From: Alphaproteobacteria bacterium
Lineage (GTDB): Bacteria > Pseudomonadota > Alphaproteobacteria > Bin95
DNA length: 64,000 nt
Direction of reading: 5' to 3'
Assembly (NCBI GenBank): GCA_963665325.3
Contig: CAXXWS020000004.1
Location: 160,001-224,000, forward strand
Of the stretch, positions 32,389-44,206 are shown one piece after another. Each line of letters starts with the position of its first letter. Position 1 is the first letter of the stretch. The position numbers were made by a program, and so were the translations under genes. The notes beneath the pieces are model-generated. The model had not been told where the DNA came from. It made no database searches and saw only the letters and a list, made by a program, of their open reading frames with translations.

Positions 32389-33030
32389 TCATGGCGGTCC
32401 AGCACCATACCGAGGCGGCGCCTCGGGCAACAGGAAACGGTCCGAGCGCTTCTGTCGATAGCGCCGGATGCCCTTGCAGGGATTGCCGCCATCGGGCCGA
32501 TACCCCCAGGCTTCGGCCTGCTGCATGATGACGGACAGGATCGGCGCCGAACGGTTTGCCCCCGCCGGCGTCGCATGGAGCGAACGGAACCACCGCTGGA
32601 CGTCCTCACGGGTGATTTCCGCGACAGGCCGGCCCGCGAAGAAGGGCAGGATCTGACTGCGGAGATAGCGGCGGTTGACCGCGAGCGTTCGCGGCTTCCA
32701 GCGCCTGCCGTAGCGGACGAAGACTTCCTCTGCCACGGTCTCGAACAGCGTATCGCCGGACCCTTCCGTCTCTATATCCCTATCGTCGCGCAGTGCGGCC
32801 AGCATGGACCGGGCATGGGCGCGTGCTTCCGCCTCGGACATGACCGCCGCATCGCCGACAATCTTCCAGACCCGATGGCCCCGATGCTGGCTGTGGAGGG
32901 AATACCGCTTCGTGCCCGAGGGCGTGATGCGGACACCGTATCCCTTCAGTTCTGCGTCCCTGACACTGCGGACAGTCTTGCGGGACCGGAGGGCGTCGAC
33001 CCGGCGCTGGGTGAGGCGAATGGCTACCAT
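32389..33030 (-). pseudogene. Tyrosine integrase, N-terminal arm-binding and core-binding domains only
   Basis: RLTQRRVDAL...RDAELKGYGVRITPSGTK...EAR; EITREDV; NPCKGI; RFL; catalytic domain absent. Confidence 0.8.
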
Positions 33031-33283
33031 GACTGCGGTTCCCCGATCTGTTTGCATTCGTGTGCAAAACCGGGTTCGATTCCGCGCCCGGTTGCACCGG
33101 AAACGGAGACAATCCACAATCATGTCAGATGGTTAGCACCGAAGGTGCGCTGAGATGTGTGCATGCGGTAGCCCGCAAGCGGGAGGGGGGAACAGGCGCA
33201 GCCTCCCGTCGGGTGGAAGGGCAGCAGTGCGAAACGCCCCCGGACATGGGTCCCGCATCGAGCACTCCGGTTTGAGCGGGCCG

Positions 33284-33520: not shown

Positions 33521-34512
33521 CGGAACACGACGCCTGGCTGGCCGGCCTGCCGAAGGCGGAACTGCACCTGCATCTGGAGGGCGCCATCCCGCTGCCGGCG
33601 CTGTTCGAGCTGGTCGAGGCCGCCGGTGGGGACCCGGCCGTGCCGACCGTTGAGGCATTGCGGGACCGCCTTGCCTATCCCGATTTCCCGGCCTTCATCG
33701 ACGCCTGGATCTGGAAGAACGGTTTCCTGCGGACCTACGGCGACTTCACTTTCATCGCCGAGGCCGTCGCCAAAGACCTTGCGCGCCAGAACATCCGCTA
33801 TGCGGAACTGTTCTTCTCGCCCGGCAGGTTTGCGGACCGGGGGCTGACGACTGCCGGTCTGGCAGCGGCCATCCGCAGCGGCTTCGACCGGGTTCCGGAG
33901 GTGACGCTCTACCTGATCGCCGATCTCGTTCGCGACCTCGGGCCGCAAAATGCGGCAAGGACGCTTGCCGAGGTCGTGGAAGTCGCGGGCGAAGCCGGCA
34001 TTCCGGGTATCGGCATCGGCGGCTCCGAACATCTCTATCCGCCCGAACCCTTTGCCGCCGTCTATGAGGAGGCCCGCAAGGCGGGGCTGCGCACAAGCGC
34101 CCATGCCGGCGAGGCGGCCGGGGCCAAGAGCGTCCGCGGGGCGGTGGAGGCGCTGCGGGTGGACCGCATCGGCCATGCGCTCCGCGCGGAAGAGGACGAG
34201 GCGGTGGTCGATCTGCTGGCGCGCAGCGGTGTCGTGCTCGAACTCTGTCCGCTTTCGAATCTCGCCACCGGCGTCATCGGGCGGATCGAGGACCATCCGG
34301 TGCGCCGCTACTGGGGGCGCGGCCTCAACATCACGATCAACACCGACGACCCGGGCATGTTCCACAACAGCCTCGCCGGCGAATACGCCGTGCTGATGGA
34401 TGTCTTCGGGTTCGGCCGCGATGAAATCCGGCGTCTGGCCGCCGCCGCTCTGGAGGGCGCCTGGTGCGGGCCGGACGAGAAGGCGAAGCTGCGTCCGCTT
34501 TTCGCCGCTTGA
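33517..34512 (+). CDS. add: Adenosine/adenine deaminase
   Basis: LPKAELHLHLEG, HAGE, RIGH, CPLSN, NTDDP. Confidence 0.9.
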   Translation: MTEHDAWLAGLPKAELHLHLEGAIPLPALFELVEAAGGDPAVPTVEALRDRLAYPDFPAFIDAWIWKNGFLRTYGDFTFIAEAVAKDLARQNIRYAELFFSPGRFADRGLTTAGLAAAIRSGFDRVPEVTLYLIADLVRDLGPQNAARTLAEVVEVAGEAGIPGIGIGGSEHLYPPEPFAAVYEEARKAGLRTSAHAGEAAGAKSVRGAVEALRVDRIGHALRAEEDEAVVDLLARSGVVLELCPLSNLATGVIGRIEDHPVRRYWGRGLNITINTDDPGMFHNSLAGEYAVLMDVFGFGRDEIRRLAAAALEGAWCGPDEKAKLRPLFAA

Positions 34513-34547
34513 CCCGCACCGTCCGGACTTGCCACTAATCGGGCTGC

Positions 34548-34642
34548 GGAGGGGAATCCGGTCCGGTGGCCGGCTCGGTCTTCAAAACCGCTGCGGCGGC
34601 GCATCGCTGCCAGGTGGGTTCGACTCCCACTCTCCTCCGCCA
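34548..34642 (+). tRNA. selC: tRNA-Sec (anticodon UCA)
   Basis: 95 nt; 8-bp acceptor stem GGAGGGGA/TCTCCTCC; anticodon loop CTTCAAA; long variable arm; GGTTCGACTCC T-arm; encoded GCCA end. Confidence 0.95.
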
Positions 34643-34820
34643 GTCCGGGCGTATGCAGACATCTCGTTTGGATTTGCATCCGCTGCGCCCGCCGGGCCGA
34701 CCGCACCGCACTCCGCGCCGCTTTCGCCACTTCCGCCCGGGTCCGCAGCTGCCCGCGTTGTTTTCCACAAGATGATGACTCATTGGTTCTGAAATTTGGT
34801 AATATTTCCCAAAACAGGAC

Positions 34821-34847
34821 TTGACCCTCAGGAAATTATGCTAAGAT
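34821..34847 (+). promoter_or_regulatory. Putative promoter of element copy A
   Basis: TTGACC-N15-TAAGAT with a TGn extended -10, in AT-rich context; same architecture in copy B. Confidence 0.55.
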
Positions 34848-34854
34848 AGGTCCA

Positions 34855-35060
34855 AGGGAGGTGGCGTCCGCGCGGACCGCTTCCCTTCGCGTCGGCCCGG
34901 CGCGGAACGACCCCGATTCAGCAGACAGGTGAAGTGCGCCCTCCGGCTCGCGCGCGCAATCAGGCGCGCGAACCGCGCCGGCGCCAACACGCGCCCGCGC
35001 CCGCCCGCGATACGCGCGAAACAGGGTCGTTCCCCGCCGGGGCGGCCTGTCTGTCCGTCA
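34855..35060 (+). ncRNA. Candidate structured RNA of unknown family (copy A)
   Basis: Collinear homology with 43255-43445 (-); conserved hairpins; identical 21-mer CGCGATACGCGCGAAACAGGG; long-range helix with compensatory changes. Confidence 0.6.
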
Positions 35061-35146
35061 ACGCCGTCCCCGCCGGCCCGGCGCGGTCCCGCACCGCAGC
35101 CGGGCTTCCGGTATCGAACGCCAGCGGAACGAAGGAGCCGCACCCC

Positions 35147-36127
35147 ATGCCCATCATCCAACCCGCCGTCGCGCTGTCCACACGCCAGGAGGCCTTCTGC
35201 CGCCACTATGCGGTTTCCGGCAATGCCGCAGACGCTGCAAGGCAGGCGGGCTACTCCGACCGCTCCGCCCGCCAGACCGGCTGCGCCTTATTGGAACGAC
35301 CCTACATTGTGGAACGGCTGCGGCGCATCCGCCTGTCCTGGAAGCGCACCGAGAGGGACGAGGCCCGTATCCTGCTCGCCCGGCTGGAGCAGGCCTGGGA
35401 CGCGGCCGTCGCCAGCGGCTCGGCCTACACGATGCTGCGGGTACTGCGCTTCCAGGCCGAGATTGCAGGGCTTACGGGGCCGACAACCGCGCGCCGTGCG
35501 GGGCTCTGGCCGATGCCGCACGAGGACGAACTCGGCGAGATCGAAGCGGGCGAGGCGCAGGAGGCGGGCACCGAGCCCGGCCCCTTGGCCGAGGCCGTGC
35601 GCAGCGGCCTCGACAGCGCCCGATGCGCGCTCGCGCGGCACCATGCCAGCCGGGAGGAGCTCGAGGCGCAGGAGGGTTTCGACCGGGCCGCGCACGAGGA
35701 AGTTGCCCGCAGGATCGCCGGAGCCGTCGAGGAGCGGACGCGCCTGCCCGTCTGCTTCGAGGCTCCCGCACCGCCCCCGGACGACGACCGGCCCCCCGCC
35801 GACGACCCGCCCGAGGAGACCTACGAGAACTGCCCGTGGGCAGGCGGCGAAGGGTCTGGCGACGAGGACAGGGTCGACGGTGACAGGGCCGACGGCGCCG
35901 AACATGACTGGCTCTACCAGCGCCGCAACGGCTACGCCGAAATCTACGACCCCTGGGCCCCGGAGGAGGTCCGGCAGCGAACGCGGAACCGCCTCGAACG
36001 GGAAGAGCGGGGCAGCGGCGAAGACGGTGACTGGAGTGGACCGGCAACGAAAAAGAATAAGAAGAAGAGGGCAAGGAAGACCGGGCCCGAGGGCGCCGGT
36101 TCCGCGCCGGACCATGACAGAACATGA
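35147..36127 (+). CDS. Protein with N-terminal small-terminase-like (Terminase_2-type HTH) domain and long acidic/low-complexity tail
   Basis: GAAGGAG RBS; LSTRQEAFCRHYAVSGNAADAARQAGYSDRSARQTGCALLERP matches the TerS pattern LT.KQ..F...Y....NA..AA..AGYS...A...G..LL..P. Confidence 0.75.
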   Translation: MPIIQPAVALSTRQEAFCRHYAVSGNAADAARQAGYSDRSARQTGCALLERPYIVERLRRIRLSWKRTERDEARILLARLEQAWDAAVASGSAYTMLRVLRFQAEIAGLTGPTTARRAGLWPMPHEDELGEIEAGEAQEAGTEPGPLAEAVRSGLDSARCALARHHASREELEAQEGFDRAAHEEVARRIAGAVEERTRLPVCFEAPAPPPDDDRPPADDPPEETYENCPWAGGEGSGDEDRVDGDRADGAEHDWLYQRRNGYAEIYDPWAPEEVRQRTRNRLEREERGSGEDGDWSGPATKKNKKKRARKTGPEGAGSAPDHDRT

Positions 36128-36138
36128 CATTGCATGAC
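36113..36138 (+). repeat. Triple CATGAC direct repeat, 10-bp period (copy A end)
   Basis: CATGAC at 36113, 36123 and 36133. Confidence 0.8.
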
Positions 36139-36185
36139 ACTTCCCAAGGGGTCTCCTGCGGCGAGGCCGCGCCATGCCGGGACAG

Positions 36186-36278
36186 CCTCCCTCGCAAGCG
36201 AAGGAGGGAGACAAGGAAGTCAGGCCGGCGCCATGGAATCCCCTCGCCCCGCTTGCGGGGAAAGGCCGGGAGAGGGGC
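36186..36278. repeat. Alphaproteobacterial REP/RIME-like palindromic elements
   Basis: CCTCCCTCGCAAGCGAAGGAGGG and CCCCTCGCCCCGCTTGCGGGGAAAGG...GAGAGGGG; related CCCGCAAGCGGGAGGGGG at ~33172. Confidence 0.55.
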
Positions 36279-36306
36279 CGGCTGGCCGCGCGGCCCCCGC
36301 CGTCGC

Positions 36307-38076
36307 TCAGTGCGAGTGGCGCGGCGGTTCCGCGGCGACGCGGCGGTAGCGGGTGGCGAACTCCAGGCAGCCGCCCTCGGCGAGCTGGCCCACATGGCTG
36401 CGGTAAAGCTCCTCCCAGGGCGTGTGGTTCTCCAGCGCCGGCGGGTCGTAGGCGGCCTGGCGCGCGGCGAGCACCTCTTCGGGAAGCAGGATATCGACGC
36501 GGCGCGTCCGCAGGTCCACCCGCAGCCGGTCGCCCGTTTCCAGTATGGCGAGATTACCGCCGACCGCGCTCTCCGGGCTCGCATTCAGGATCGACGGGCT
36601 GCCCGAAGTGCCGGACTGGCGGCCGTCGCCGATGGTCGGCAATTCGGTGACGCCGGCGCGGATGAGGGCCGCGGGCGGCTGCATATTGACGACTTCCGCC
36701 GAGCCCGGATAGCCGACCGGCCCGGCGCCGCGCATCACCAGTATGCAGGTTCCGTCGATGCCGAGCGCCGGGTCGTCGAGGCGCGCGTGGTAGTCCTCCG
36801 GCCCGTCGAACACGATGGCCTTGCCCTCGAAGGCGTCAGGGTCGTCCGGGTTCGAGAGGAACCGGGCGCGGAACTCCTCGGAGATCACGCTGGTTTTCAT
36901 CACCGCGGCGTCGAACAAATTGCCGCCCATGACGACGAAGCCGGCGCGCTCCTTCAGCGGCTGTCCCCAGGGGCGGATCACGTCCTCGTCGAGCGGCGCG
37001 GCATCGCCGATATTCTCTTCGATGGTCTTGCCCGTGACGGTGAGCGCGTCCGGGTTCAGCTTCCCGGCGCGCAGCAGCTCGCCCATGACAGCGGGCACGC
37101 CGCCCGCCCGGTGGTAGTCCTCGGCCAGATAGTCGCCGGCCGGCTGGCAGTTGACCAGGAGCGGGATGTCGTAGCCGCACTCCTGCCAGTCCTCCAATAC
37201 CAGTTCGACGCCCATATGGCGCGCGATGGCGTTGATGTGGATCGGCGCGTTTGTGGACCCGCCGATGGCGCTGTTGACCGTGATCGCGTTCTCGAAGGCG
37301 GCGCGGGTCAGGATGCGGTCGGGCGTCAGGTCCTCGTGGATCATGGCGACGATGCGCCGCCCGGTTTCATAGGCGTATTGCGCGCGCTCCTTGTGCGGGG
37401 CGGGCGGTGCGGCGGAGCCCGGCAGCGACATGCCGAGCGCCTCGGCGAGCGAGTTCATCGTCGTCGCCGTGCCCATGGTGTTGCAGTGGCCGGGGCTCGG
37501 CGCCGAGGAGGCCACCATCTCGATGAACTCCTCATAGCCGATCTCGCCCGCCGCCTGGAGCTTGCGCGCCTCCCAGACGATGGTGCCGGAACCGACGCGC
37601 CTGCCCTTCCACCAGCCGTTGAACATCGGCCCGCCATTGAGCGAGATCGCCGGCAGGTTCGCCGTCGCCGCCGCCATGATCATCGCCGGCGTGGTCTTGT
37701 CGCAGCCCGTGGTCAGGATCACCCCGTCGATGGGATAGCCGTGAAGCACCTCGACCAGACCCAGATAGGCGAGGTTGCGGTCGATGGCGGCGGTCGGGCG
37801 GCGCCCGCTCTCCTGGATCGGGTGTACCGGGAACTCGATGGCGATGCCGCCCGCCTCGCGGATGCCGGCGCGCATGCGCTCCGCCAGGCTCTGGTGGATG
37901 CGGTTGCAGGGCGAGAGGTCGGAGCCGGTCTGCGCGATGCCGACGATGGGCTTGCCGGACTGCAACTCCTCCCGCGTGATGCCGTAGTTCATGTACCGCT
38001 CGATATACATGGCGGTCATGCCCGGATCGTGCGGGTCGTTGAACCAACTCCGGCTGCGCAACTGCTTCCCGGCCAT
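36307..38076 (-). CDS. IlvD/Edd-family sugar-acid dehydratase (xylonate dehydratase-like)
   Basis: LRSRSWF, PCN, GCDKTTP, GHCNTMGTA, IGGSTN, GDGRQSGTS. Confidence 0.9.
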   Translation of the reverse strand: MAGKQLRSRSWFNDPHDPGMTAMYIERYMNYGITREELQSGKPIVGIAQTGSDLSPCNRIHQSLAERMRAGIREAGGIAIEFPVHPIQESGRRPTAAIDRNLAYLGLVEVLHGYPIDGVILTTGCDKTTPAMIMAAATANLPAISLNGGPMFNGWWKGRRVGSGTIVWEARKLQAAGEIGYEEFIEMVASSAPSPGHCNTMGTATTMNSLAEALGMSLPGSAAPPAPHKERAQYAYETGRRIVAMIHEDLTPDRILTRAAFENAITVNSAIGGSTNAPIHINAIARHMGVELVLEDWQECGYDIPLLVNCQPAGDYLAEDYHRAGGVPAVMGELLRAGKLNPDALTVTGKTIEENIGDAAPLDEDVIRPWGQPLKERAGFVVMGGNLFDAAVMKTSVISEEFRARFLSNPDDPDAFEGKAIVFDGPEDYHARLDDPALGIDGTCILVMRGAGPVGYPGSAEVVNMQPPAALIRAGVTELPTIGDGRQSGTSGSPSILNASPESAVGGNLAILETGDRLRVDLRTRRVDILLPEEVLAARQAAYDPPALENHTPWEELYRSHVGQLAEGGCLEFATRYRRVAAEPPRHSH

Positions 38077-38184
38077 GAGACGCTCTCCCCTCTGCTTGAG
38101 GCCGCGAGGGTAGCGAAGCGTTTTGCCGCCGGGAAGGCGTGCGTTACAATCCGGCGCGCGACAGGACGGGGGCCGGGAACGGTC

Positions 38185-39126
38185 ATGCAGGGAATGCGGG
38201 TAACGGTATTCGGCGGCGCCGGGTTCGTCGGGCGCTACATCGTCAAGCGGCTCGCGGCGGCGGGCGCCGGCGTCCGGGTCGCATGCCGGGACCCGGAACG
38301 GGCGAAGTTCCTGAAGCCTGCAGGCGACGTCGGCCAGGTCGTGCCGGTGCAGGCCAATCTGCGCTATCCGGAGAGCGTGCGCGCGGCGGTCGAGGGCGTC
38401 GATGCGGTCGTCAATTGCGTGGGCGTTCTGGCGAGCCGGGGGCCGCAGTCCTTCTCGGCGATCCATGCGGCGGGCGCGGGCACGGTCGCCTCCGCTTCCG
38501 CCGAGGCCGGCGTCGGCAAGCTCGTGCATATCTCCGCCATCGGGGCGGATGCGGACTCCACGGCGGCATATGCCCGCTCCAAGGCGGCGGGCGAGGCCGC
38601 GATGCGCGAGGCCTTCGCGCATGCCGCGATCCTGAGGCCGAGCCTCGTAATCGGGCCGGAGGACGACTTCTTCAACCGGTTCGCGCTCATGGCCCGGCTG
38701 CTCCCGGCGCTGCCGCTGATCGGCGGTGGCCTCACGCGCTTCCAGCCGGCCTATGTCGGCGATGTGGCCGATGCGGCGGTCGCGGCGCTCGACCGGGCGG
38801 GCGGCCTGTTCGAGCTTGGCGGGCCGAAGGTCTATTCGTTCAGGCAGTTGATGGAATTGCTGCTCGCCGAGATCGGCCGCAAGCGCCTGCTGGTGCCGGT
38901 GCCGTTCCAGATCATGCAGGCCAAGGCCGCCTTCATCCAGTTCTTGCCCGGCGCGCCGATCACGCCGGACCAGGTCGAATTGCTGAAATACGACAATGTC
39001 GTGTCCGAGGGCGCGGCCGGCTTTGCGGAGCTCGGCATCGAGCCGAGGGACATCGAAACTGTCATCCCCACCTATCTCGACCGCTTCCGCATCCGGGGCC
39101 GCTTCGCCGGGCGCGATCCGGCCTGA
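38185..39126 (+). CDS. Complex I NDUFA9-like NAD(P)-dependent epimerase/SDR
   Basis: VTVFGGAGFVGRY, HISAIGAD, YARSK, FFNRFA, FQPAYVGDVA. Confidence 0.88.
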   Translation: MQGMRVTVFGGAGFVGRYIVKRLAAAGAGVRVACRDPERAKFLKPAGDVGQVVPVQANLRYPESVRAAVEGVDAVVNCVGVLASRGPQSFSAIHAAGAGTVASASAEAGVGKLVHISAIGADADSTAAYARSKAAGEAAMREAFAHAAILRPSLVIGPEDDFFNRFALMARLLPALPLIGGGLTRFQPAYVGDVADAAVAALDRAGGLFELGGPKVYSFRQLMELLLAEIGRKRLLVPVPFQIMQAKAAFIQFLPGAPITPDQVELLKYDNVVSEGAAGFAELGIEPRDIETVIPTYLDRFRIRGRFAGRDPA

Positions 39127-40022
39127 CGCTGCAAGCGGTAAACCGGCCCGCCGGAGGGCGCGAGGCCCGCGCCATCGCGGCGGCGCTCGTGGCAATGGTG
39201 TTCTGGGGCGCCTGGTTTCCGCTGTCGCGCCTTTCCGTCACCGAGTCGATCACGCCCGAGGACCTCGCCATCCTGCGGGTGGGCGTGCCGGCCGTGCTGC
39301 TGCTGCCGGTAGCGCTCCGGTTGGGCTTCAAGGCCGGCAAGGCGGGCTGGTGGGGGACGGCGGCGATGGCCGGGACCATCGGCATCCCCTTCGCGCTGGT
39401 GCTCGGCACGGGCCTGCTCCACGCCCCGGCCGCTCACGCCGCGATCTTCATTCCCGGCACCTTTCCGGCCCTTACCGCGCTGCTCGGCATCCTGCTGCTG
39501 CGCGAGCGGGCCGGCGGACTGAGGCTCACGGGCGTCGGCCTGACCGTGGCCGGCGTCGGCCTGACCGCCCTTTCCGCGCTGCAGGACGCGCCGCCGGGCG
39601 GCCTCGGCGGCTACGCGCTGTTCCATCTGGGCGCCTGGATGTGGGCCATCTACACGGTGACGGCGCGCCGGGCCGAGGTCTCGCCGCTCCACGCGGCAGC
39701 GATCCTTTCCACCGTTTCGACGGCGGCCTTCCTGCCGCTCTTCCTGCTGTTCGGCGAGAGCCGGCTGCTGGAGATTCCCCTGGCCTCCCTGGCCTGGCAG
39801 GCCCTTGTCCACGGCGTTCTGGGCGGCATCGTCTCGATCTGGCTCTACAGCTACGCCATCGGCGTGCTGGGCGCAGGCCGTACCGGCGTCTTCGCGGGCC
39901 TGGTGCCGGGCCTCGGCGCGCTGTTCTCCGCGCTGCTGCTCGGCGAGAGCCTCGCCTGGCCGGAGCTCGCGGGCCTCGCGATCGTCACCGCCGGCATCGT
40001 CATGGTGCAGGCGGGGCGGTAG
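39123..40022 (+). CDS. DMT/EamA-family transporter (start uncertain)
   Basis: About 10 TM segments with two EamA repeats (LLRER, LLGE). Confidence 0.8.
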   Translation: MTLQAVNRPAGGREARAIAAALVAMVFWGAWFPLSRLSVTESITPEDLAILRVGVPAVLLLPVALRLGFKAGKAGWWGTAAMAGTIGIPFALVLGTGLLHAPAAHAAIFIPGTFPALTALLGILLLRERAGGLRLTGVGLTVAGVGLTALSALQDAPPGGLGGYALFHLGAWMWAIYTVTARRAEVSPLHAAAILSTVSTAAFLPLFLLFGESRLLEIPLASLAWQALVHGVLGGIVSIWLYSYAIGVLGAGRTGVFAGLVPGLGALFSALLLGESLAWPELAGLAIVTAGIVMVQAGR

Positions 40023-40036
40023 GCCGGCGTCCTTGG

Positions 40037-40918
40037 CTACCGTCCTCTTGCGATCCGCGTTTCGGCGGCGAGGTTCCACCAGGCACCGGCGACGATCATG
40101 CAGGCGCCGACCAGCACCATCGTCTCCGGCACCTCCAGATAGAGGACGAACCCGACCAGGCCGAGCAACGGTAGCTGGATATAGGTGACCGGCACCACGA
40201 CCGAGATGTCGCCGAGGCGGATGGACTGGTTCATGGTGAGATGCGCGACCACGCCCGTGAAGCCGACAATGGCGATCCAGCCCGCGTCCTCCCACACGAC
40301 CGGCGTCCACTGGCCCCAATTGGCGAGCGCCGCGATGGGCAGCTGGATTATCAGCATGTAGAGGACGATCTGGATCGGCGTGTCCGTGCGCATCAGGTGC
40401 TTGGAGAGCACATTCGCGCCTGCATAGCCGGCCGCGCCGAAAATGCACACCAGCGCCGCCCATTCGACCGGCACCGCGTGGGGCCGCAGGATGACCAGCA
40501 CGCCCGCGAAGCCGAGCGCGACGACCGCCCAGCGCCGGAGCCCCGCGCGCTCGCCGAGGAAGCCGACGGCGAGCAAGGTCGCCCAGATCGGCGTGGTCGC
40601 CATCAGCGCGCTCATGTCGATCAGGCTCAGCGCCGCGATGCCGTAGAACCAGGCGTACTGGCCGACGAAGTGGACGCCGTTGCGGGCGAGATGCAGCAGC
40701 GGCCGGCGGGTGGCGATGCGCCCGGCGGCGAGCGCGAGCGGCAGGGCGGCGAACAGGCCCACGAAGCTCCGCAGCACCATGATCTGCGCGGTGGACATGG
40801 TGTCCGAGAGCTGCCGCGCCGCCACCGCCATCGCCATGAAGCAAAGCACGGTGCCGCACATCCAGAGTGCGCCGACGATATTGTTCCGGGCGGCTATGCG
40901 CCGGTCGGGCGCCCTCAT
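40037..40918 (-). CDS. DMT/EamA-family transporter
   Basis: About 10 TM segments; FLGER...RRW...LGFAGVLVILRP. Confidence 0.85.
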   Translation of the reverse strand: MRAPDRRIAARNNIVGALWMCGTVLCFMAMAVAARQLSDTMSTAQIMVLRSFVGLFAALPLALAAGRIATRRPLLHLARNGVHFVGQYAWFYGIAALSLIDMSALMATTPIWATLLAVGFLGERAGLRRWAVVALGFAGVLVILRPHAVPVEWAALVCIFGAAGYAGANVLSKHLMRTDTPIQIVLYMLIIQLPIAALANWGQWTPVVWEDAGWIAIVGFTGVVAHLTMNQSIRLGDISVVVPVTYIQLPLLGLVGFVLYLEVPETMVLVGACMIVAGAWWNLAAETRIARGR

Positions 40919-42270
40919 CCGCGCGGCGGAAGGCCGGCGAGCAGGCGGTCCACCATCTCCGGCGCCTCGCCCACATAGTTGCCGGGCTCGCAAAGCTGCG
41001 CGAGTGCGTCGCGGTCGAGCTTGGCCGTTACCTCAGGCATGTCCAGCAGCACGTCCAGCAGGGCGCGACGCTCGTCGGTCGCGATACGGCAGGCTTCATA
41101 GACGAGGTCGTGCGCCGCCTGCCGGCCGAGTGCGGGCGCAAGGCCCATCATCACCGCTTCGGAGACGATCAGCCCGCGCGTCATGTCCATATTGGCCCGC
41201 ATGGCTTCCGGATTGACGCGCAGGCCGTCCATCAGGAAACGCGCCTGGGCAAGCGCGCCGGACGCCAGCACGAAGGCTTCCGGAAGCGCCGCCCATTCCA
41301 CGTGCCACGGCCCGGTGGAGCGCTCAAGGTCGGCTGCCATTGCGTCCATGACAAGGGCGGCCCGGCTCTGGACCTGCTTGGCGCAGGCGAGAATGAGTTC
41401 GCTGGAGACCGGGTTGCGCTTCTGCGGCATGGTGGAGGACCCGCCGCGGCCGGGCGCGAAGGGTTCGAAGACCTCGCCCGTCTCGGTCGCGGTCAGCAGC
41501 ACCACGTCGGTCGCGATCTTGGCGAGCGAGCCGGTGACGAGCGCGAGGAAGGCCAGCGTCTCGGCGATGGTGTCGCGCGCGGTGTGCCAGGCGATGGCGG
41601 GCCGGGCGAGGCCGAGCTCCTCCATCAGCGCGTCCGAAACTTCCAGTCCCCGGCCGTGCAGCGAAGCGAGCGTTCCGGCCGCGCCCGAGAACTGGCCCAT
41701 GAGCACGCGCGGACGCAATTGTTCGAGCCGCTCCAGATGGCGCTCGATCGGCGCCAGCCACACCGCCGCCTTGTAGCCGAAGGTGATGGGGAGCGCGTGC
41801 TGGAGGTGCGAGCGCCCGGCCATTGGCGTGTCGCGATATTTGCGGGCAAGGCGCGCAAGGCCGTCCCGGACGGCGATGAGGTCCGCTTCCACAAGGTCGA
41901 GCGCATCGCGGATCTGGAGCACGACGCCCGTGTCCTTGATGTCCTGCGTGGTCGTGCCCCAATGGACGTAGCGTCCCGCATCCCCCTCGCAGAGCGCGGC
42001 AAGGCGGTGCACCAGCGGCATGATGGCGTAGCCGACGCGGTCGACCTCCTCGCGCATGAGGTCCATGTCGATCAGGTCCGCGTCCGCCTTGCCGGAAATC
42101 TGGGCCGCCGCGTCCTCCGGGATTATTCCGAGCCGGCCCTGGACCCGGGCCAGCGCCGCCTCGACATCCAGCCATTTCTGCACTTGGCCGCGCTCGGAAA
42201 ACACCGCCCGCATCGCGTCCGAGCCGAAGAGGTTCCCGTAGATCCCGCTGTCGATGATGGAGACTGGCAT
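40915..42270 (-). CDS. Fumarase-superfamily lyase (3-carboxy-cis,cis-muconate cycloisomerase/adenylosuccinate lyase-like)
   Basis: HWGTTTQD, GRSHLQHALPITFG, GGSSTMPQKRNP. Confidence 0.85.
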   Translation of the reverse strand: MPVSIIDSGIYGNLFGSDAMRAVFSERGQVQKWLDVEAALARVQGRLGIIPEDAAAQISGKADADLIDMDLMREEVDRVGYAIMPLVHRLAALCEGDAGRYVHWGTTTQDIKDTGVVLQIRDALDLVEADLIAVRDGLARLARKYRDTPMAGRSHLQHALPITFGYKAAVWLAPIERHLERLEQLRPRVLMGQFSGAAGTLASLHGRGLEVSDALMEELGLARPAIAWHTARDTIAETLAFLALVTGSLAKIATDVVLLTATETGEVFEPFAPGRGGSSTMPQKRNPVSSELILACAKQVQSRAALVMDAMAADLERSTGPWHVEWAALPEAFVLASGALAQARFLMDGLRVNPEAMRANMDMTRGLIVSEAVMMGLAPALGRQAAHDLVYEACRIATDERRALLDVLLDMPEVTAKLDRDALAQLCEPGNYVGEAPEMVDRLLAGLPPRG

Positions 42271-42403
42271 TGCCCCGCATTCCCCCGCTGCCGCCGGCGC
42301 GCGCAGCCTAGAGCGTTTCGCGCCACGCCGAAATCGCCCGGCGCTTGCGGGCCCGGTAGTGCAAAGGCAGTCTATCGGAGCAATTGCGGAGGGAAGCCGG
42401 GCG

Positions 42404-43108
42404 ATGGTGAAAGCGCTCCTGTTCGATGTGTTCGGCACGGTGGTGGACTGGCGGGGATCGGTAGCGCGCGAGGCGCGCAAGGCGCTGGCGCCGAAGGGCT
42501 ACGACCTCGACTGGCACGGTTTCGCGCGGCGCTGGCGGGACCGCTACCAACCCGCGATGGAGGAGGTCCGCAGCGGGGCGAGGCCCTACACCATCCTCGA
42601 CGTGCTGCACCGGGAGAATCTGGAGGCCCTGCTTGAGGAGTTCGGCGTGGCCGGCCTGAGCGAGGCCGAGAAGGACGATCTCAACCGCGCCTGGCACCGG
42701 CTGGACCCGTGGCCGGACGCGGTGCTGGGCCTTACACGGCTCAAGCGCAAATTCATCGTCGGCACCTGCTCCAACGGCAATATCGCGCTCATGGTGAACA
42801 TGGCCCGCCATGCGCGACTGCCCTGGGACGCGATCCTGGGGGCGGAGGTCGCCCGGGCCTACAAGCCGCAGCCGGACGCCTACCGCCTGAGCTGCGAGGC
42901 GCTCGGCCTCGCGCCGGAGGAAGCGATGATGACGGCCGCCCACAATGGCGACCTGCACGCCGCGGCCGCGCAGGGCATGGCGACGGCGTTCGTGGCGCGA
43001 CGAACCGAACACGGTCCCGGCCAGACGACGGACCTCGAGGCCGACCCCGGATTTACCGTTGTCGCGGAAGACTTCATCGACCTCGCGGACCGGCTCGGCT
43101 GCCCCTGA
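42404..43108 (+). CDS. Haloacid dehalogenase type II
   Basis: LFDVFGTVVDW, SNGN, YKP, AAHNGDL. Confidence 0.88.
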   Translation: MVKALLFDVFGTVVDWRGSVAREARKALAPKGYDLDWHGFARRWRDRYQPAMEEVRSGARPYTILDVLHRENLEALLEEFGVAGLSEAEKDDLNRAWHRLDPWPDAVLGLTRLKRKFIVGTCSNGNIALMVNMARHARLPWDAILGAEVARAYKPQPDAYRLSCEALGLAPEEAMMTAAHNGDLHAAAAQGMATAFVARRTEHGPGQTTDLEADPGFTVVAEDFIDLADRLGCP

Positions 43109-43138
43109 CGGCGCGCGGCGGAAAGGCCCCACCGCGAT

Positions 43139-43164
43139 GTCATGATGTGTCATGTTTCGTCATG
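43139..43164 (-). repeat. Triple CATGAC direct repeat, 10-bp period (copy B end)
   Basis: GTCATG on the + strand at 43139, 43149 and 43159. Confidence 0.8.
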
Positions 43165-43222
43165 GTTCGGCGGCTGGCGGCCGGCGCTCCGGGTCTTCCG
43201 TCCGGTTTCCTGTTTTCGCCAT
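43160..43222 (-). CDS. 20-aa residual ORF of element copy B (MAKTGNRTEDPERRPPAAEP)
   Basis: GAAAGGAGAG RBS; same position as the TerS-like ORF of copy A; stop lies in the first CATGAC. Confidence 0.35.
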   Translation of the reverse strand: MAKTGNRTEDPERRPPAAEP

Positions 43223-43254
43223 GGTCTCTCCTTTCCGTCCGTCTTCGTTCCACT

Positions 43255-43445
43255 TCCGCCGCCGACAGTTTGCCCGAGCGGCGGGTCCCTGTTTCGCGCG
43301 TATCGCGCGCGGGAGGGCGCGCCCGTTAGCGCCGGCGCGCAGGAACCCAGGCGCAGGACGCACGTCACCCGTCGGTTTAATGGGGGTCTTTTTTCGCGCC
43401 GGCGCGAAACGGGAAAGGAAGCGGCTCCGCGGACACCGCCTCCTT
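43255..43445 (-). ncRNA. Candidate structured RNA of unknown family (copy B)
   Basis: Homologous to 34855-35060; see findings. Confidence 0.6.
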
Positions 43446-43457
43446 CCTCCTCGCTCC

Positions 43458-43484
43458 ATACTACCACAGATATTCTGAGGTCAA
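43458..43484 (-). promoter_or_regulatory. Putative promoter of element copy B
   Basis: TTGACC-N15-TAGTAT with a TGn extended -10; AT-rich upstream. Confidence 0.55.
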
Positions 43485-43618
43485 GAAAAATTAGGAATTA
43501 TTGCGAAATATTTTAGAACAAGAATCAACCTGCACGCTCCAGGCGGCGCGCCGAGAAAGGAAAATTCCGGAATCTCGCGCCGGCCCCCATTATCGGGTCC
43601 GGTCGGGGACCGTCCGGG

Positions 43619-44206
43619 TCAGGCGGCCAGCGCCTCCTCGACGAAGTCGAGCCGGTCCTGGCCGAAGAACATCTCGTCGCCGACGAAGAAGGTGGGCGCG
43701 CCAAACACGCCGCGCGCCACCGCCTCTTCGGTATTGGCGATCAATTGCTGCTTGATCCCCGGCTCCTGCGTGGCGGCGAACAGCGCATCGGCGTCGAGTC
43801 CGGCGGCAGTGACGACCTCGCGCAGCACATCGAGGTCGCCGGTGTTCCTGCCCTCGACCCACATCGCCGTGAACACGGCATCGGCATAGGTCTTGAAATA
43901 GCCGTCGCGCTGGGCGGCGAGGCAGCCGCGCATGAGGCCGAGCGTCATGATCGGGAAGAACGGGTTGCGCTGGAACGGCACGCCGTAGCGTTTGGCGAAA
44001 CGTGGAAGGTCGATGCCGTAATAGGCGGACTTGGCCTCCACGGTGCCCGGCGGCGTATTGCCCGTCGCCTTGAAGATGCCGCCGAGCAGCATCGGCTTCC
44101 AGGCGATCTCCGCTCCGGTGCGCTCGGCGATGCCGGGCATCTGCGTGTGGGCGAGATAAGCGGTCGGCGAGCCGACATCGAACCAGAATTCAAGGCGTTT
44201 CGGCAT
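43619..44206 (-). CDS. 2-hydroxychromene-2-carboxylate isomerase/kappa-GST (DsbA family)
   Basis: [36 protein letters not shown]. Confidence 0.88.

What the first reader, a model, noticed from the sequence alone, without database searches (positions are those of the whole stretch)
34855..35060. Leader with compensatory changes and possible pseudoknot: candidate novel ncRNA
Seen: the long-range helix CAGACAG(34922-34928)/CTGTCTG(35047-35053) in A becomes CCGACGG(43375-43369)/CTGTCGG(43268-43262) in B. That is one double compensatory change (A-U to C-G) and one A-U to G-U change. The 5' hairpin changes U-G to C-G (34857-34884 vs 43443-43417). A small CCC(C/G)..(G/C)GGG hairpin precedes the 3' strand in both. 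In A, GAACGACCC(34905-34913) can pair with GGGTCGTTC(35024-35032), crossing the first helix in the order a-b-domain-a'-hairpin-b'; B keeps only CCC/GGG of this pairing. G-U-tolerant changes favour an RNA or ssDNA structure. Inference: the helix order recalls HDV-like or group I P3/P7 pseudoknots, but the ~90-nt inserted domain fits neither. Two sequences cannot give statistical covariation.
Basis: partly seen in the sequence, partly recalled or inferred. Interest (0 to 1): 0.85.

Follow-up and report, generated by a model that had tools for sequence, protein, structure and literature searches.

The report
Multicopy promoter-RNA-terminase-like mobile repeat
The flagged "leader" is the front end of a repeat found about 70 times in this genome and only in its genus, made of a promoter, a conserved GC-rich RNA-like module, a phage small-terminase-like gene or its remnants, and a run of CATGAC repeats.

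Summary
A and B are not a two-copy leader. They are 2 of 72 copies of a modular element in this genome.

The element runs in this order:
- an AT-rich promoter
- a ~200-nt GC-rich module with a near-invariant core
- a 326-aa small-terminase-like HTH gene (5 copies, A included) or deleted remnants of it
- 2-4 CATGAC repeats spaced 10 bp apart

Main results:
- **Distribution:** it occurs in 13 of 16 other species of the genus and in 0 of 20 genomes of the two sister genera.
- **Insertion:** B is an insertion shared only with the closest relative. At least five other species have an empty site there. B has also lost part of the core.
- **Known families:** no Rfam family matches.
- **Structure, supported:** covariation strongly supports the 5' hairpin, with 9 of 9 pairs compensated in 93 copies from other genomes. 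It moderately supports the GACCC/GGGUC long-range pairing.
- **Open points:** transcription is only weakly hinted at. How the element moves is unknown. The sole protein has no enzyme-like fold.

Verdict: a real, previously undescribed, genus-restricted composite repeat.

The parts
34783..34820 (+). AT-rich upstream block of element copy A (TTGGTTC...AATATTTCCC). Conservation among copies begins here.
   Evidence: Consensus of 65 copies. Alignment of the 5 full-length copies shows identity rising here.
34821..34847 (+). Promoter-like site: TTGACC (34821-34826), 15-nt spacer, TG at 34839-34840, TAAGAT (34842-34847). This is an extended -10 type.
   Evidence: Read by eye. In the 65-copy consensus, TTGAC sits at 70-99%, TG at about 80% and TAnnAT at 60-90%. 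The consensus scanner requires a 16-18-nt spacer and did not call it.
34857..34884 (+). It would lie at the very 5' end of the predicted transcript.
   Evidence: 7 of 11 pairs have changes on both sides in 60 own-genome copies. 9 of 9 pairs do in 93 copies from other genomes: 85 double-change cells against 24.9 +/- 4.0 when shuffled, and at most 53 when the 3' partners are slid. The region's sense z is -2.11 against -1.34 for antisense.
34904..34913 (+). 5' strand of the long-range helix b (GGAACGACCC). Family-wide the conserved part is GACCC.
   Evidence: MFE of A. Pair counts: 3 of 5 pairs have double changes and 77% of cells are paired.
34922..34928 (+). Pairing to 35047-35053 is possible in A but is not conserved.
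   Evidence: Rows of alignment A2. Not in the MFE of A.
34954..34984 (+). Near-invariant core 31-mer, GCGCAATCAGGCGCGCGAACCGCGCCGGCGC. It contains predicted hairpin P5 (34963-34968 / 34974-34979) and the 5' strand of P6 (34980-34984, pairing with 34991-34995).
   Evidence: Exact matches in at least 89 stretches of other MAG genomes. P5 is 98.9% paired and P6 90.6% paired, but without any double change. Copies are otherwise only 72% identical at the median.
35004..35018 (+). Predicted hairpin P7 (CGCGCG-AUA-CGCGCG type; in A, CCCGCG-AUA-CGCGCG).
   Evidence: 88.6% of cells paired, with one-sided changes only. No covariation.
35024..35046 (+). 3' strand of helix b (GGGTCGTTCC). In A it continues as CGCCGGG and CGGC, which pair back to 34891-34902.
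   Evidence: MFE of A. Pair counts.
35047..35053 (+).
   Evidence: By my reading of the rows, intact in 3, imperfect in 1 and absent in 4 of the 8 A-type copies.
35132..35137 (+). Shine-Dalgarno-like AAGGAG, 9 nt upstream of the ATG.
   Evidence: The conserved GGAACGAA..GGAG block is visible in the copies printed.
35147..36127 (+). Gene for the 326-aa small-terminase-like protein (P0002).
   Evidence: - Pfam Terminase_2, residues 11-80, E = 2.4e-12 and 48.1 bits against a cut-off of 26.1
- PHROG terS families
- GC3 of 0.84
- Five copies in the genome at 90-93% amino-acid identity
- AF2 model: confident HTH, the rest helical or low-confidence
36113..36138 (+). Three CATGAC repeats with a 10-bp period. 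The stop codon of P0002 lies inside the second one. This marks the 3' end of the element.
   Evidence: Alignment of full-length copies. The genome holds 99 such arrays against a mean of 0.3 for 40 control hexamers. 81 of the 99 lie within 1.5 kb downstream of an RNA-module hit on the same strand.
43117..43600 (-). Element copy B, a short, decayed copy. Approximate limits of the inserted DNA. Components:
- TTGACC 43484-43479
- TAGTAT 43463-43458
- P1 43443-43417
- 20-codon ORF 43222-43160
- CATGAC repeats at 43164-43159, 43154-43149 and 43144-43139
   Evidence: Present in G000 and G011 only, with the empty site aligned in G007, G016, G005, G008 and G012. G006, G015 and G002 are empty by coordinates. 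B lacks 27 nt of the core that G011 keeps.
34548..34642 (+). tRNA-Sec gene immediately upstream of copy A (context only).
   Evidence: Rfam, 72.6 bits. ARAGORN. The DNA downstream of this tRNA differs between species of the genus.

Best explanation
The flagged stretch is the conserved 5' module of a genus-restricted composite repeat that has inserted at many places in the genome.

**Anatomy**
- A full-length copy is about 1.35 kb (A is one of five). It has an AT-rich block with an extended -10 promoter and a ~200-nt GC-rich module. The module begins with a covarying hairpin and contains a near-invariant core. A gene follows for a 326-aa protein whose first ~120 residues are a phage small terminase (HTH plus oligomerisation helices). 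The copy ends in three CATGAC repeats on one face of the DNA helix.
- About 65 shorter copies (B is one) have lost most or all of the gene but keep both ends.

**Shown**
- Copy number.
- The linkage between the RNA-like module and the CATGAC repeats.
- Restriction to one genus.
- Presence/absence differences between species at four loci.
- Derivation of some short copies from long ones by deletion.
- Covariation in the 5' hairpin.

**Inferred working model**
- The promoter transcribes the module as the 5' untranslated region of the terminase-like gene.
- The 5'-terminal hairpin stabilises that transcript.
- The invariant core and the closing helix form a protein- or ligand-binding platform that governs expression.
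- The terminase-like protein binds the CATGAC repeats as an oligomer.
- Both ends persist in deletion derivatives because they are needed in cis for the element to be kept or copied.

The enzyme that cuts and joins the DNA is not encoded in the element and remains unknown.
For: **Copy number and architecture**
- 72 nhmmer hits lie on four of the five contigs. The shared order promoter-module-ORF-CATGAC is visible across copies.
- The genome has 99 CATGAC arrays against a mean of 0.3 for control hexamers. 81 of 99 lie within 1.5 kb downstream of a module, and 63 of 72 modules have one.
- There are five full-length copies whose flanks are unrelated.

**Short copies derive from long ones**
- Short ORFs have GC3 of 0.45-0.83, mostly under 0.7, against 0.82-0.86 for the full gene.
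- Two short copies are recognisable deleted or frameshifted remnants of the gene.

**Distribution**
- The covariance model finds the module in 13 of 16 congeners, with 47-71 of the 71 scored candidates matching in each. It finds none in 0 of 10 and 0 of 10 genomes of two sister genera.
- BLAST finds none in 0 of 16 other families of the class.

**Insertion polymorphism**
- B.
- A 406-bp copy that in G011, G012 and G005 is absent from a 14-nt operon spacer, with GCCC present on both sides of the insert.
- A 733-bp insert between convergent genes, and one further locus.

**Structure**
- P1 covaries in 9 of 9 pairs.
- G-U to A-C counts are 45:20 and 78:27.

**Protein**
- Pfam Terminase_2 above its cut-off.
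- Ordinary 130-200-aa small terminases align to residues ~9-120.
- The gene is itself multicopy, 2-12 per genome, in 11 of 16 congeners.

**Transcription hint**
- In the one RNA-library run, summed contig depth is 525 over 34711-35021 against 8.5 in the next bin.
- Three DNA-like runs give 1202/306, 635/133 and 1082/272 for the same two bins.
Against: **Mobility**
- No transposase or recombinase is in the element. P0002 has only an HTH and helices, with pLDDT below 70 outside residues 10-65.
- No clear terminal inverted repeats were found.
- The inserted DNA extends a variable 20-100 nt upstream of the conserved block.
- A target duplication is seen at only the one clean junction.

**RNA function**
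- The consensus scanner did not call the promoter, because the spacer is 15 nt.
- Whole-module folding shows no strand asymmetry: z = -1.70 sense against -1.59 antisense, and the sense MFE is lower in only 10 of 30 copies.
- The core has no covariation, so its hairpins are predictions only.
- The alignment used was fitted to the model, which biases pair counts towards it.

**Transcription evidence**
- It rests on contigs. The tool states that contigs cannot rank expression and that an RNA library can contain DNA.
- B's bin is not enriched in that run: 2.07.

**Dependence on the terminase-like protein**
- G009 (complete, one contig) has at least 47 modules but no terminase-like gene. The modules therefore persist without the protein.
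Confidence: 0.55

Rival explanations
1. The GC-rich module works as DNA, not RNA. It would be a recombination or protein-binding site set, similar to a phage attP with core, arm-type and bending sites. P1 and the palindromes (GCGCCGGCGC, CGCGCG..CGCGCG) would be protein-binding inverted repeats or single-strand DNA hairpins. The CATGAC repeats would be arm-type sites for a recombinase supplied in trans.
For: - Whole-module folding energy is no better on the sense strand than the antisense strand.
- The core is invariant and rich in perfect palindromes.
- 10-bp-phased direct repeats are typical of cooperative DNA binding (recalled knowledge).
- A P4-type tyrosine integrase with an Arm DNA-binding domain is multicopy in the genus. 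In two copies it sits at exactly the same break point inside the core, after GATAC.
- An IS110-family transposase has inserted between the module and the repeats in another copy.
Against: - A conserved promoter sits directly upstream, and P1 starts where a transcript would start.
- G-U exceeds A-C in P1 by 2.3- to 2.9-fold.
- P1's sense z of -2.11 beats the antisense -1.34.
- The integrase family also occurs in G001, which lacks the element.
- The integrase cases look like insertions that disrupt the element, not ones that move it.
Confidence: 0.17
2. The units are a family of independent small-RNA genes, each with its own promoter. They would act in trans, as a regulatory or protein-sequestering RNA. 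The terminase-like gene and the short ORFs would be incidental passengers or relics.
For: - The promoter and RNA module are the best conserved parts. The core is nearly invariant although copies are only 72% identical at the median.
- G009 keeps at least 47 modules without any terminase-like gene.
- Depth in the RNA library is high over the module only, not over the ORF.
- Integrases of the type that target tRNA and small-RNA genes (recalled) have used the module as a target in two copies.
Against: - No intrinsic terminator follows the module. The 3' hairpin region has z = -1.17 only, and by my reading of the copies printed it has no U tract.
- The tight linkage to the CATGAC repeats 100-1100 nt downstream would be unexplained.
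- Patchy presence within one genus and insertion polymorphism fit a selfish repeat better than a core regulator.
Confidence: 0.13
3. The element is a packaging parasite. The terminase-like protein would recognise the CATGAC repeats as a pac-like site and recruit the large terminase of a helper phage or gene transfer agent. DNA next to each copy would then be packaged and spread, and new copies would arrive in other cells by homologous recombination of the flanks.
For: - Residues ~9-120 of P0002 align with ordinary small terminases, including the oligomerisation helices.
- Hexamer repeats resemble some pac sites (recalled: P1 pac).
- Insert limits are ragged, with no inverted repeats, as expected if flanks rather than ends are recombined.
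- Full-length copies sit at synteny breaks.
Against: - A T4/GTA-type large terminase domain (Terminase_6N) was found in only 3 of 17 genomes of the genus, and above its cut-off in only 2. Other large-terminase families were not searched.
- No close relative of P0002 is in the viral contig collection: 4 distant hits at 31-33% identity over the HTH only.
- Packaging does not explain spread to about 70 different loci within one genome.
- It gives no role to the RNA module.
Confidence: 0.08
4. One reading: a cis-acting leader (riboswitch- or ribozyme-like, with a pseudoknot) controlling the downstream gene.
For: - The module lies between a promoter and a ribosome-binding site.
- In one subfamily the GGAG of the ribosome-binding site can pair with an upstream CUCC. 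This is by eye from the copies printed and was not tested.
- The closing helix b/b' has some covariation.
Against: - Most copies have no intact gene to control.
- The pseudoknot-forming helix is not conserved.
- No known riboswitch or ribozyme model matches.
- A regulatory leader would not by itself be present about 70 times or be insertion-polymorphic.
Confidence: 0.07

Closest known systems
MITE-like non-autonomous derivatives of insertion sequences, and promoter-bearing intergenic repeats such as Neisseria Correia elements or pneumococcal BOX elements (recalled from general knowledge; only review listings were seen)
   Same: - High copy number.
- Intergenic location.
- Insertion polymorphism between close species.
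- Short copies derived from longer coding copies by internal deletion.
- Modular build.
- A possible effect on neighbouring genes. One copy sits between a Shine-Dalgarno sequence and the start codon of an operon gene.
   Different: - No terminal inverted repeats found.
- No transposase in the long copies.
- Much longer conserved interior, with an invariant core.
- Its own promoter faces inward.
- The coding partner is a terminase-like DNA-binding protein.
Element-encoded structured RNAs of IS110 (bridge RNA) and IS200/IS605 (omega/reRNA with TnpB) (recalled)
   Same: A structured ~150-250-nt non-coding module at the 5' end of a mobile element, upstream of the element's only protein gene, kept in many copies.
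   Different: - The protein is neither a DEDD recombinase nor TnpB/IscB. Pfam finds only Terminase_2.
- No Rfam match to the known element RNAs.
- No programmable loops complementary to the element ends were noticed.
- The one IS110 transposase found is an intruder on the opposite strand.
Small terminase (TerS, Pfam Terminase_2) with its pac site, including TerS genes carried by phage satellites (recalled)
   Same: - N-terminal HTH and the following helices match above the Pfam cut-off.
- They align with ordinary 130-200-aa TerS proteins.
- A cluster of short direct repeats lies at or in the 3' end of the gene, where pac sites often lie.
   Different: - No adjacent large terminase, capsid, integrase or replication genes. 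Flanks of the 5 copies are unrelated.
- 2-12 copies per genome.
- A 200-residue extension with no known fold.
- Absent from the viral contig collection apart from 4 distant hits.
Phage attP-type recombination sites with 10-bp-phased arm-type repeats and AT-rich bending sites (recalled)
   Same: - Three direct repeats with a 10-bp period at one end.
- An AT-rich block at the other end.
- A GC-rich palindromic middle.
- An HTH protein that could act like an excisionase-type architectural factor.
   Different: - Dispersed at about 70 unrelated sites rather than at one attachment site.
- Carries a promoter and a covarying hairpin with G-U bias.
- No dedicated integrase.

Membership tests
Any Rfam 15 RNA family (including HDV-like ribozymes, group I introns, riboswitches, element-associated RNAs) | Match to the family covariance model at its gathering score | tested here: not met
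   Over the whole window at gathering score, the only hit is tRNA-Sec. A and B regions at E <= 10 give 13-17 bits against cut-offs of 35-153, to unrelated miRNA, IRES and sRNA models.
   The helix that would make the pseudoknot (34922-34928 with 35047-35053) is intact in only 3 of the 8 A-type copies, by my reading of the rows printed. It is not in the MFE of A. Catalysis cannot be tested with these tools.
MITE / non-autonomous insertion-sequence derivative | Many short copies derived by deletion from a longer coding element | tested here: met
   72 copies, 5 of them full-length. Two short copies retain deleted or frameshifted pieces of the gene.
MITE / non-autonomous insertion-sequence derivative | Terminal inverted repeats and a fixed-length target-site duplication | tested here: inconclusive
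   One clean junction shows GCCC on both sides and weakly similar inverted ends (GTTTCCCG / GTTCCCCCG). Three other junctions have ragged, dissimilar ends. No consistent inverted CATGAC occurs at the 5' end.
MITE / non-autonomous insertion-sequence derivative | Autonomous partner encodes a transposase | tested here: not met
   - The only ORF of the 1.35-kb copy has Terminase_2 as its sole Pfam domain.
- No NCBIfam match.
- No enzyme-like fold in the AF2 model.
IS110 with bridge RNA / IS605 with omega RNA | DEDD recombinase or TnpB/IscB gene next to the RNA | tested here: not met
   Pfam on P0002. The IS110 transposase in one copy lies on the opposite strand, between the module and the repeats, which makes it an insertion.
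Small terminase, Pfam Terminase_2 (PF03592) | Profile match above the curated cut-off | tested here: met
   48.1 bits against a cut-off of 26.1, residues 11-80. PHROG phrog_51 terS, E = 3.5e-14. Typical-length TerS proteins align to residues ~9-120.
Small terminase, Pfam Terminase_2 (PF03592) | Works with an adjacent large terminase in a packaging module | tested here: not met
   Flanks of the five copies are unrelated and hold no shared gene. Terminase_6N occurs in 3 of 17 genomes of the genus. Other TerL families were not searched.
Phage satellite (SaPI/PICI-like) | Integrase, replication and regulation genes, about 5-15 kb, one or few copies at att sites | tested here: not met
   The element is about 1.35 kb with one gene and is present about 70 times.
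Cis-regulatory leader / riboswitch | Conserved aptamer upstream of intact homologous genes, with an expression platform | tested here: not met
   Only 5 of 72 copies precede an intact gene. Ligand binding cannot be tested here.

The most novel reading that the evidence does not exclude
This may be a new class of bacterial mobile element that carries no conventional transposase. Instead it would combine a domesticated phage small terminase, binding phased CATGAC repeats at one end, with an element-encoded structured RNA whose invariant three-way-junction core is required in cis or in trans for its own copying. That RNA role would be analogous in logic to bridge or omega RNAs, or to the phi29 packaging RNA. 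The element would thus propagate by an RNA-dependent or terminase-dependent route not yet described.
Probability: 0.15. Interest if true: 0.85.

Novelty: new variant of a known kind. Interest (0 to 1): 0.6.

Why it matters
**If the working model holds**
- A whole bacterial genus, known here only from metagenome-assembled genomes, carries 50-70 or more copies per genome of an element that pairs a conserved structured RNA with a phage-terminase-derived DNA-binding protein and no recognisable transposase.
- That would add a new kind of autonomous/non-autonomous repeat pair to bacterial mobile DNA.
- It would give a concrete candidate for a new structured RNA class: no Rfam match, an invariant ~60-nt core and a covarying 5' hairpin.
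- It would offer a natural system for asking how a small terminase can be re-used outside virion packaging.

**Practical consequences**
- The repeats carry inward promoters and sit in very short intergenic spacers, once between a ribosome-binding site and a start codon. They probably rewire expression of neighbouring genes.
- They mark synteny breakpoints, which matters for assembling and comparing these genomes.

**If the element turns out to be only a decaying repeat**
The 'compensatory changes' between A and B are differences between two distant members of a 70-member family, one of them broken.

Tried and rejected
**Structure prediction that led nowhere**
- RNAalifold on the MAFFT alignment of 60 copies gave only 13 pairs and no covariation.
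- A mutual-information scan gave little.
- Averaged pair probabilities recovered only P1.
- A stem-clustering scan was swamped by GC-rich alternatives.

**Helices I proposed and dropped**
- P4, a long-range helix UCGCGCGCG(GGCG)/(CGCC)CGCGCGCGA around the core. It reaches 11-13 bp in 7 copies. In the 32 long-form copies several positions are badly mismatched, for example 12 A-C at one pair and 12 mismatches at another. I do not claim it.
- P3, a 'variable hairpin' read from per-copy folds. It has no thermodynamic support: z = -0.17.
- A local CCC/GGG pairing as an alternative to the long-range one. It could not be separated by counts, though its flanking pairs are poorer.
- Two of my structure strings were off by one column, which is why P5 and P6 read as unpaired. 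Corrected.

**Other dead ends**
- Whole-module z-scores give no strand preference. An earlier run of the same script timed out.
- My quick GC3 gene caller was too crude, so no statistics on orientation relative to neighbouring genes were made.
- The first Pfam scan used a wrong frame for the gene downstream of A. Corrected.
- Four copies with 2-3 kb between the module and the repeats were checked for a larger cargo enzyme. They hold an IS110 transposase on the other strand, an IS1595 transposase, or host genes (enoyl-CoA hydratase, MBL-fold, FAA hydrolase). No alternative autonomous form was found.
- Three identical copies in G009, a genome without the terminase-like gene, were checked as a test of protein-independent spread. 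They share at least 850 nt of upstream DNA, so a larger unit was duplicated and the test is uninformative.
- Full-length copies L166 and L167 gave no empty sites, because their flanks lie at different loci in relatives. L171 was also uninformative because its right flank is another repeat.
- The Atlas search on residues 120-326 gave no usable hit. NCBIfam found nothing.
- The viral contig collection gave only 4 distant HTH hits.
- Two literature searches returned nothing on such an element. I saw search listings and abstract starts only and read no paper. My statement that it is undescribed rests on these two searches and on Rfam, Pfam and NCBIfam. Supplementary files were not consulted.
- The RNA-library run covers B's bin at only 2.07, and a part without cover is no evidence either way.

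**Not done**
- Fold search on the protein model.
- Complex prediction.
- A scan of metagenome contigs.
- Searches for large-terminase families other than PF03237.
Full report
**What is at the coordinates**

A and B align at 75% mean column identity.

Upstream of both lies an AT-rich block. By eye it contains TTGACC, a 15-nt spacer, a TG dinucleotide and a TAnnnT box (A: 34821-34847; B: 43484-43458). The consensus scanner, which requires a 16-18-nt spacer, did not call it.

A lies just downstream of a tRNA-Sec gene at 34548-34642. It is followed by an open frame at 35147-36127. My first Pfam scan used a wrong frame. In the right frame the 326-aa product, P0002, matches Pfam Terminase_2 over residues 11-80 (48.1 bits, cut-off 26.1) and PHROG small-terminase families.

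No Rfam family matches either region at gathering score. At E <= 10 nothing exceeds 13-17 bits, against cut-offs of 35-153.

**The two copies belong to a large family**

BLAST and nhmmer against the window's own genome (5.58 Mb, five contigs, 67% GC) find 72 matches on four contigs, 65 of them at 80 bits or more.

Aligning 65 copies with their flanks shows a common order:
- an AT-rich block and promoter
- a ~200-nt GC-rich module
- in some copies, tandem ~50-nt repeats
- a GGAACGAA..GGAG ribosome-binding-like block
- a short and variable open frame
- two to four CATGAC hexamers with a 10-bp period

Five copies carry the full 326-aa gene at 90-93% amino-acid identity. Their flanks are unrelated, which bounds the long form at about 1.35 kb.

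The genome holds 99 arrays of two or more exact CATGAC at 10-nt spacing. Forty control hexamers of the same composition average 0.3. Of the 99 arrays, 81 lie within 1.5 kb downstream of a module on the same strand, and 63 of 72 modules have one.

Short open frames in frame with the repeats have GC3 of 0.45-0.83, mostly under 0.7, against 0.82-0.86 for the full gene. Two of them are recognisable deleted or frameshifted remnants of P0002. The short copies are therefore deletion derivatives that keep both ends.

**Distribution**

An exact 31-mer from the core occurs in at least 89 stretches of public genome contigs. All are titled as Alphaproteobacteria or Rhodospirillales MAGs.

| Search | Same genus (other species) | Other genera of the family | Rest of the class |
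|---|---|---|---|
| BLAST with A | 13 of 16 | 0 of 8 genomes | 0 of 16 families |
| Covariance model, 37 genomes held for the order | 13 of 16 | 0 of 10 and 0 of 10 in two sister genera | not searched |

In each positive genome, 47-71 of the 71 scored candidates matched the model. The three negative congeners are complete or near complete and small (3.4-3.8 Mb).

The terminase-like gene is itself multicopy. Terminase_2 hits number 2-12 per genome in 11 of 16 congeners. There are none in the three module-free genomes, and none in G009 and G015, which do have modules.

**Insertion polymorphism**

A 13-kb query around A and B and an alignment of fetched sites show that B is about 480 bp of extra DNA. 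It sits in G000 and its closest relative G011, inside a 6-20-bp spacer between two convergent stop codons. That spacer is empty in G007, G016, G005, G008 and G012, and by coordinates in G006, G015 and G002. G000's B lacks 27 nt of the core that G011 retains.

Three further loci gave empty sites:
- **C4:509792-510197 (406 bp).** This copy is absent from G011, G012 and G005. It lies between the Shine-Dalgarno sequence and the start codon of an operon gene, and GCCC is present on both sides.
- **A 733-bp insert** between convergent genes.
- **One less clean case**.

The inserted DNA extends 20-100 nt beyond the conserved 5' block, with dissimilar sequence. No consistent terminal inverted repeat was seen.

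Two full-length copies that were tested sit where synteny with relatives breaks. A is likewise joined to a different left flank than in G011.

**Structure of the module**

Automatic consensus folding failed on this GC-rich, indel-rich family. Counting pairs for explicit structures gave the following.

- **P1, the 5' hairpin (34857-34884 in A).**
  - In 60 own-genome copies, 7 of 11 pairs have changes on both sides and 83% of cells are paired.
  - In 93 copies from other genomes aligned to the model, 9 of 9 pairs do. Double-change cells number 85, against 24.9 +/- 4.0 in shuffles (0 of 500 reach it) and at most 53 in slid controls.
  - That alignment is fitted to the model, which favours it.
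  - G-U exceeds A-C 45:20 over the inner pairs and 78:27 in the other genomes.
  - The P1 region folds better in sense (z = -2.11) than antisense (-1.34).
In A's minimum-energy fold it extends to about 21 bp.
- **The core.** It can form two hairpins, GGCGCG-CGAAC-CGCGCC and GGCGC-loop-GCGCC, plus a CGCGCG-AUA-CGCGCG hairpin. These are 82-99% paired, but changes are one-sided only, so there is no evidence for or against them.
Its 3' partner is intact in 3, imperfect in 1 and absent in 4 of the 8 A-type copies. This is my reading of the rows. The helix is not in the fold of A. In B the 3' strand belongs to a local hairpin common to the family. The pseudoknot is therefore not supported.
- **Helices I proposed and dropped.** A long-range helix around the core and a variable hairpin did not hold up.
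- **Whole-module energies.** They show no strand bias.
- **Divergence.** Copies are 72% identical at the median, while the core is nearly invariant.

**Transcription**

One run on record as RNA (a metatranscriptome labelled sponge metagenome) and three runs of unrecorded type were laid on 34400-43700. All are contigs, so depth is a poor measure.

| Run | Depth 34711-35021 (module) | Depth 35022-35332 (next bin) | Flank depth |
|---|---|---|---|
| X1 (RNA library) | 525 | 8.5 | 3-20 |
| X2 | 1202 | 306 | about 14-60 across X2, X5 and X6 |
| X5 | 635 | 133 | as above |
| X6 | 1082 | 272 | as above |

The module-to-next-bin ratio is about 62 in the RNA library against 4-5 in the others. This is a weak hint that the module, but not the gene, is abundant as RNA. 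B's bin is not enriched in X1 (2.07).

**The protein**

- A word-indexed search found 360 relatives at E <= 0.001. The best 120 are all 64-93% identical and carry at most Terminase_2.
- An exhaustive HMMER search found 40 representatives at E <= 1e-30. Below those come ordinary 130-200-aa small terminases aligning to residues ~9-120.
- The family is conserved to about residue 285, and the tail always ends in ..HD(K/R/I)(T/S), which is encoded by the repeats.
- AlphaFold2 with 20 sequences gives a confident HTH (residues 10-65, pLDDT about 90). It gives lower-confidence helices at 70-106, 146-199, 250-261 and 272-289 and disorder elsewhere, with no enzyme-like fold.
- A GTA/T4-type large-terminase domain occurs in only 3 of 17 genomes of the genus.
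- The viral contig collection holds only four distant HTH-level relatives.

**Interpretation**

The well-supported statement is descriptive. The finding is the 5' module of a genus-restricted composite repeat, polymorphic for insertion, with long (terminase-like) and short (deleted) forms.

The working model is inference. It proposes a promoter-driven 5' UTR with a stabilising terminal hairpin and a functional invariant core. It also proposes a terminase-like protein that binds the phased repeats, and two ends that are kept because they act in cis.

The main rivals are:
- The module works as DNA, as a recombination-site set. Supporting this are palindromes, no global strand bias, a P4-type integrase found at one identical break point inside the core in two copies, and an IS110 intruder.
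- The units are free-standing small-RNA genes.
- The element is a packaging parasite.

None of these can be excluded.

**Limits**

- No paper was read beyond search listings.
- Gene-orientation statistics, other large-terminase families, and fold or complex searches for the protein were not done.

Noticed in passing
G000:C1:776985-777906 (L174) and G000:C4:13532-14463 (L175); window 32389-33123 (-): Two copies of the RNA-like module are cut at the same point, just after ..CGCGATAC in the core. Both are followed by the same foreign DNA, which carries a 397-aa P4-type tyrosine integrase (Arm-DNA-bind_3, Phage_int_SAM_3, Phage_integrase). The window itself holds a truncated relative with N-terminal domains only, 2 kb upstream of A. 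The integrase element is multicopy across the genus, including G001, which lacks the module. It may use the module as an attachment site.
   Followed up: partly
G000:C1:1918500-1921500 (L198) and G000:C4:316800-320100 (L199): An IS110-family transposase (DEDD_Tnp_IS110 + Transposase_20, 475 aa, opposite strand) lies between the module and the CATGAC repeats of one copy. An IS1595-type transposase does the same in another copy. Other insertion sequences appear to target this repeat.
   Followed up: partly
Several copies, e.g. G000:C3:1198695, C4:746837, C4:243044, C1:2384955 (printed): Between the module and the ribosome-binding block, some copies carry 2-4 tandem units of about 50 nt (GGCGTCAACGCCGCCATCTGCAATGTTCGCCGCGTTCGGCGCGGC-like). 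This is a further optional module of the element.
   Followed up: no
Flanks of many copies and the empty site of G016: A second, unrelated GC-rich short repeat (CCCCGGCTCGGGGGCCGGGGCGAC-like, REP-like) recurs in intergenic spacers next to the elements and in some empty sites.
   Followed up: no
window 34548-34760 and relatives: In 7 of the relatives listed, the match covering the adenosine deaminase gene and tRNA-Sec ends right after the tRNA. What follows differs between species. In two relatives (G007, G012) an element copy also follows the tRNA. This is a variable region at a tRNA 3' end. A sits at a synteny break relative to G011.
   Followed up: partly
G009:C1:453500-455300, 608700-610500, 851500-853300 (L200-L202): Three copies are identical over at least 850 nt upstream of the promoter as well as through the module to the last CATGAC, where identity stops. 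By eye, the shared upstream DNA encodes a transposase-like protein on the opposite strand (not tested). A larger unit including the module has been duplicated in a genome that has no terminase-like gene.
   Followed up: partly
G000:C4:509792-510197 (L172): One short copy sits between the Shine-Dalgarno sequence and the ATG of an acyl-CoA-synthetase-like gene inside an operon, in the same orientation. The downstream gene now follows the element's promoter and a new purine-rich stretch supplied by the element's 3' end.
   Followed up: partly
window 36307-43108: The 7-kb segment between A and B encodes ordinary metabolic genes: a dihydroxy-acid/6-phosphogluconate dehydratase on the minus strand, an NAD-dependent epimerase and a HAD hydrolase. 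It is syntenic in most congeners, so A and B are not the ends of an island.
   Followed up: partly
P0002 residues ~296-310 (window ~36032-36076): Some family members have a lysine/arginine-rich run (KKNKKKRARK) in the variable C-terminal tail. Others have an acidic tail instead.
   Followed up: no
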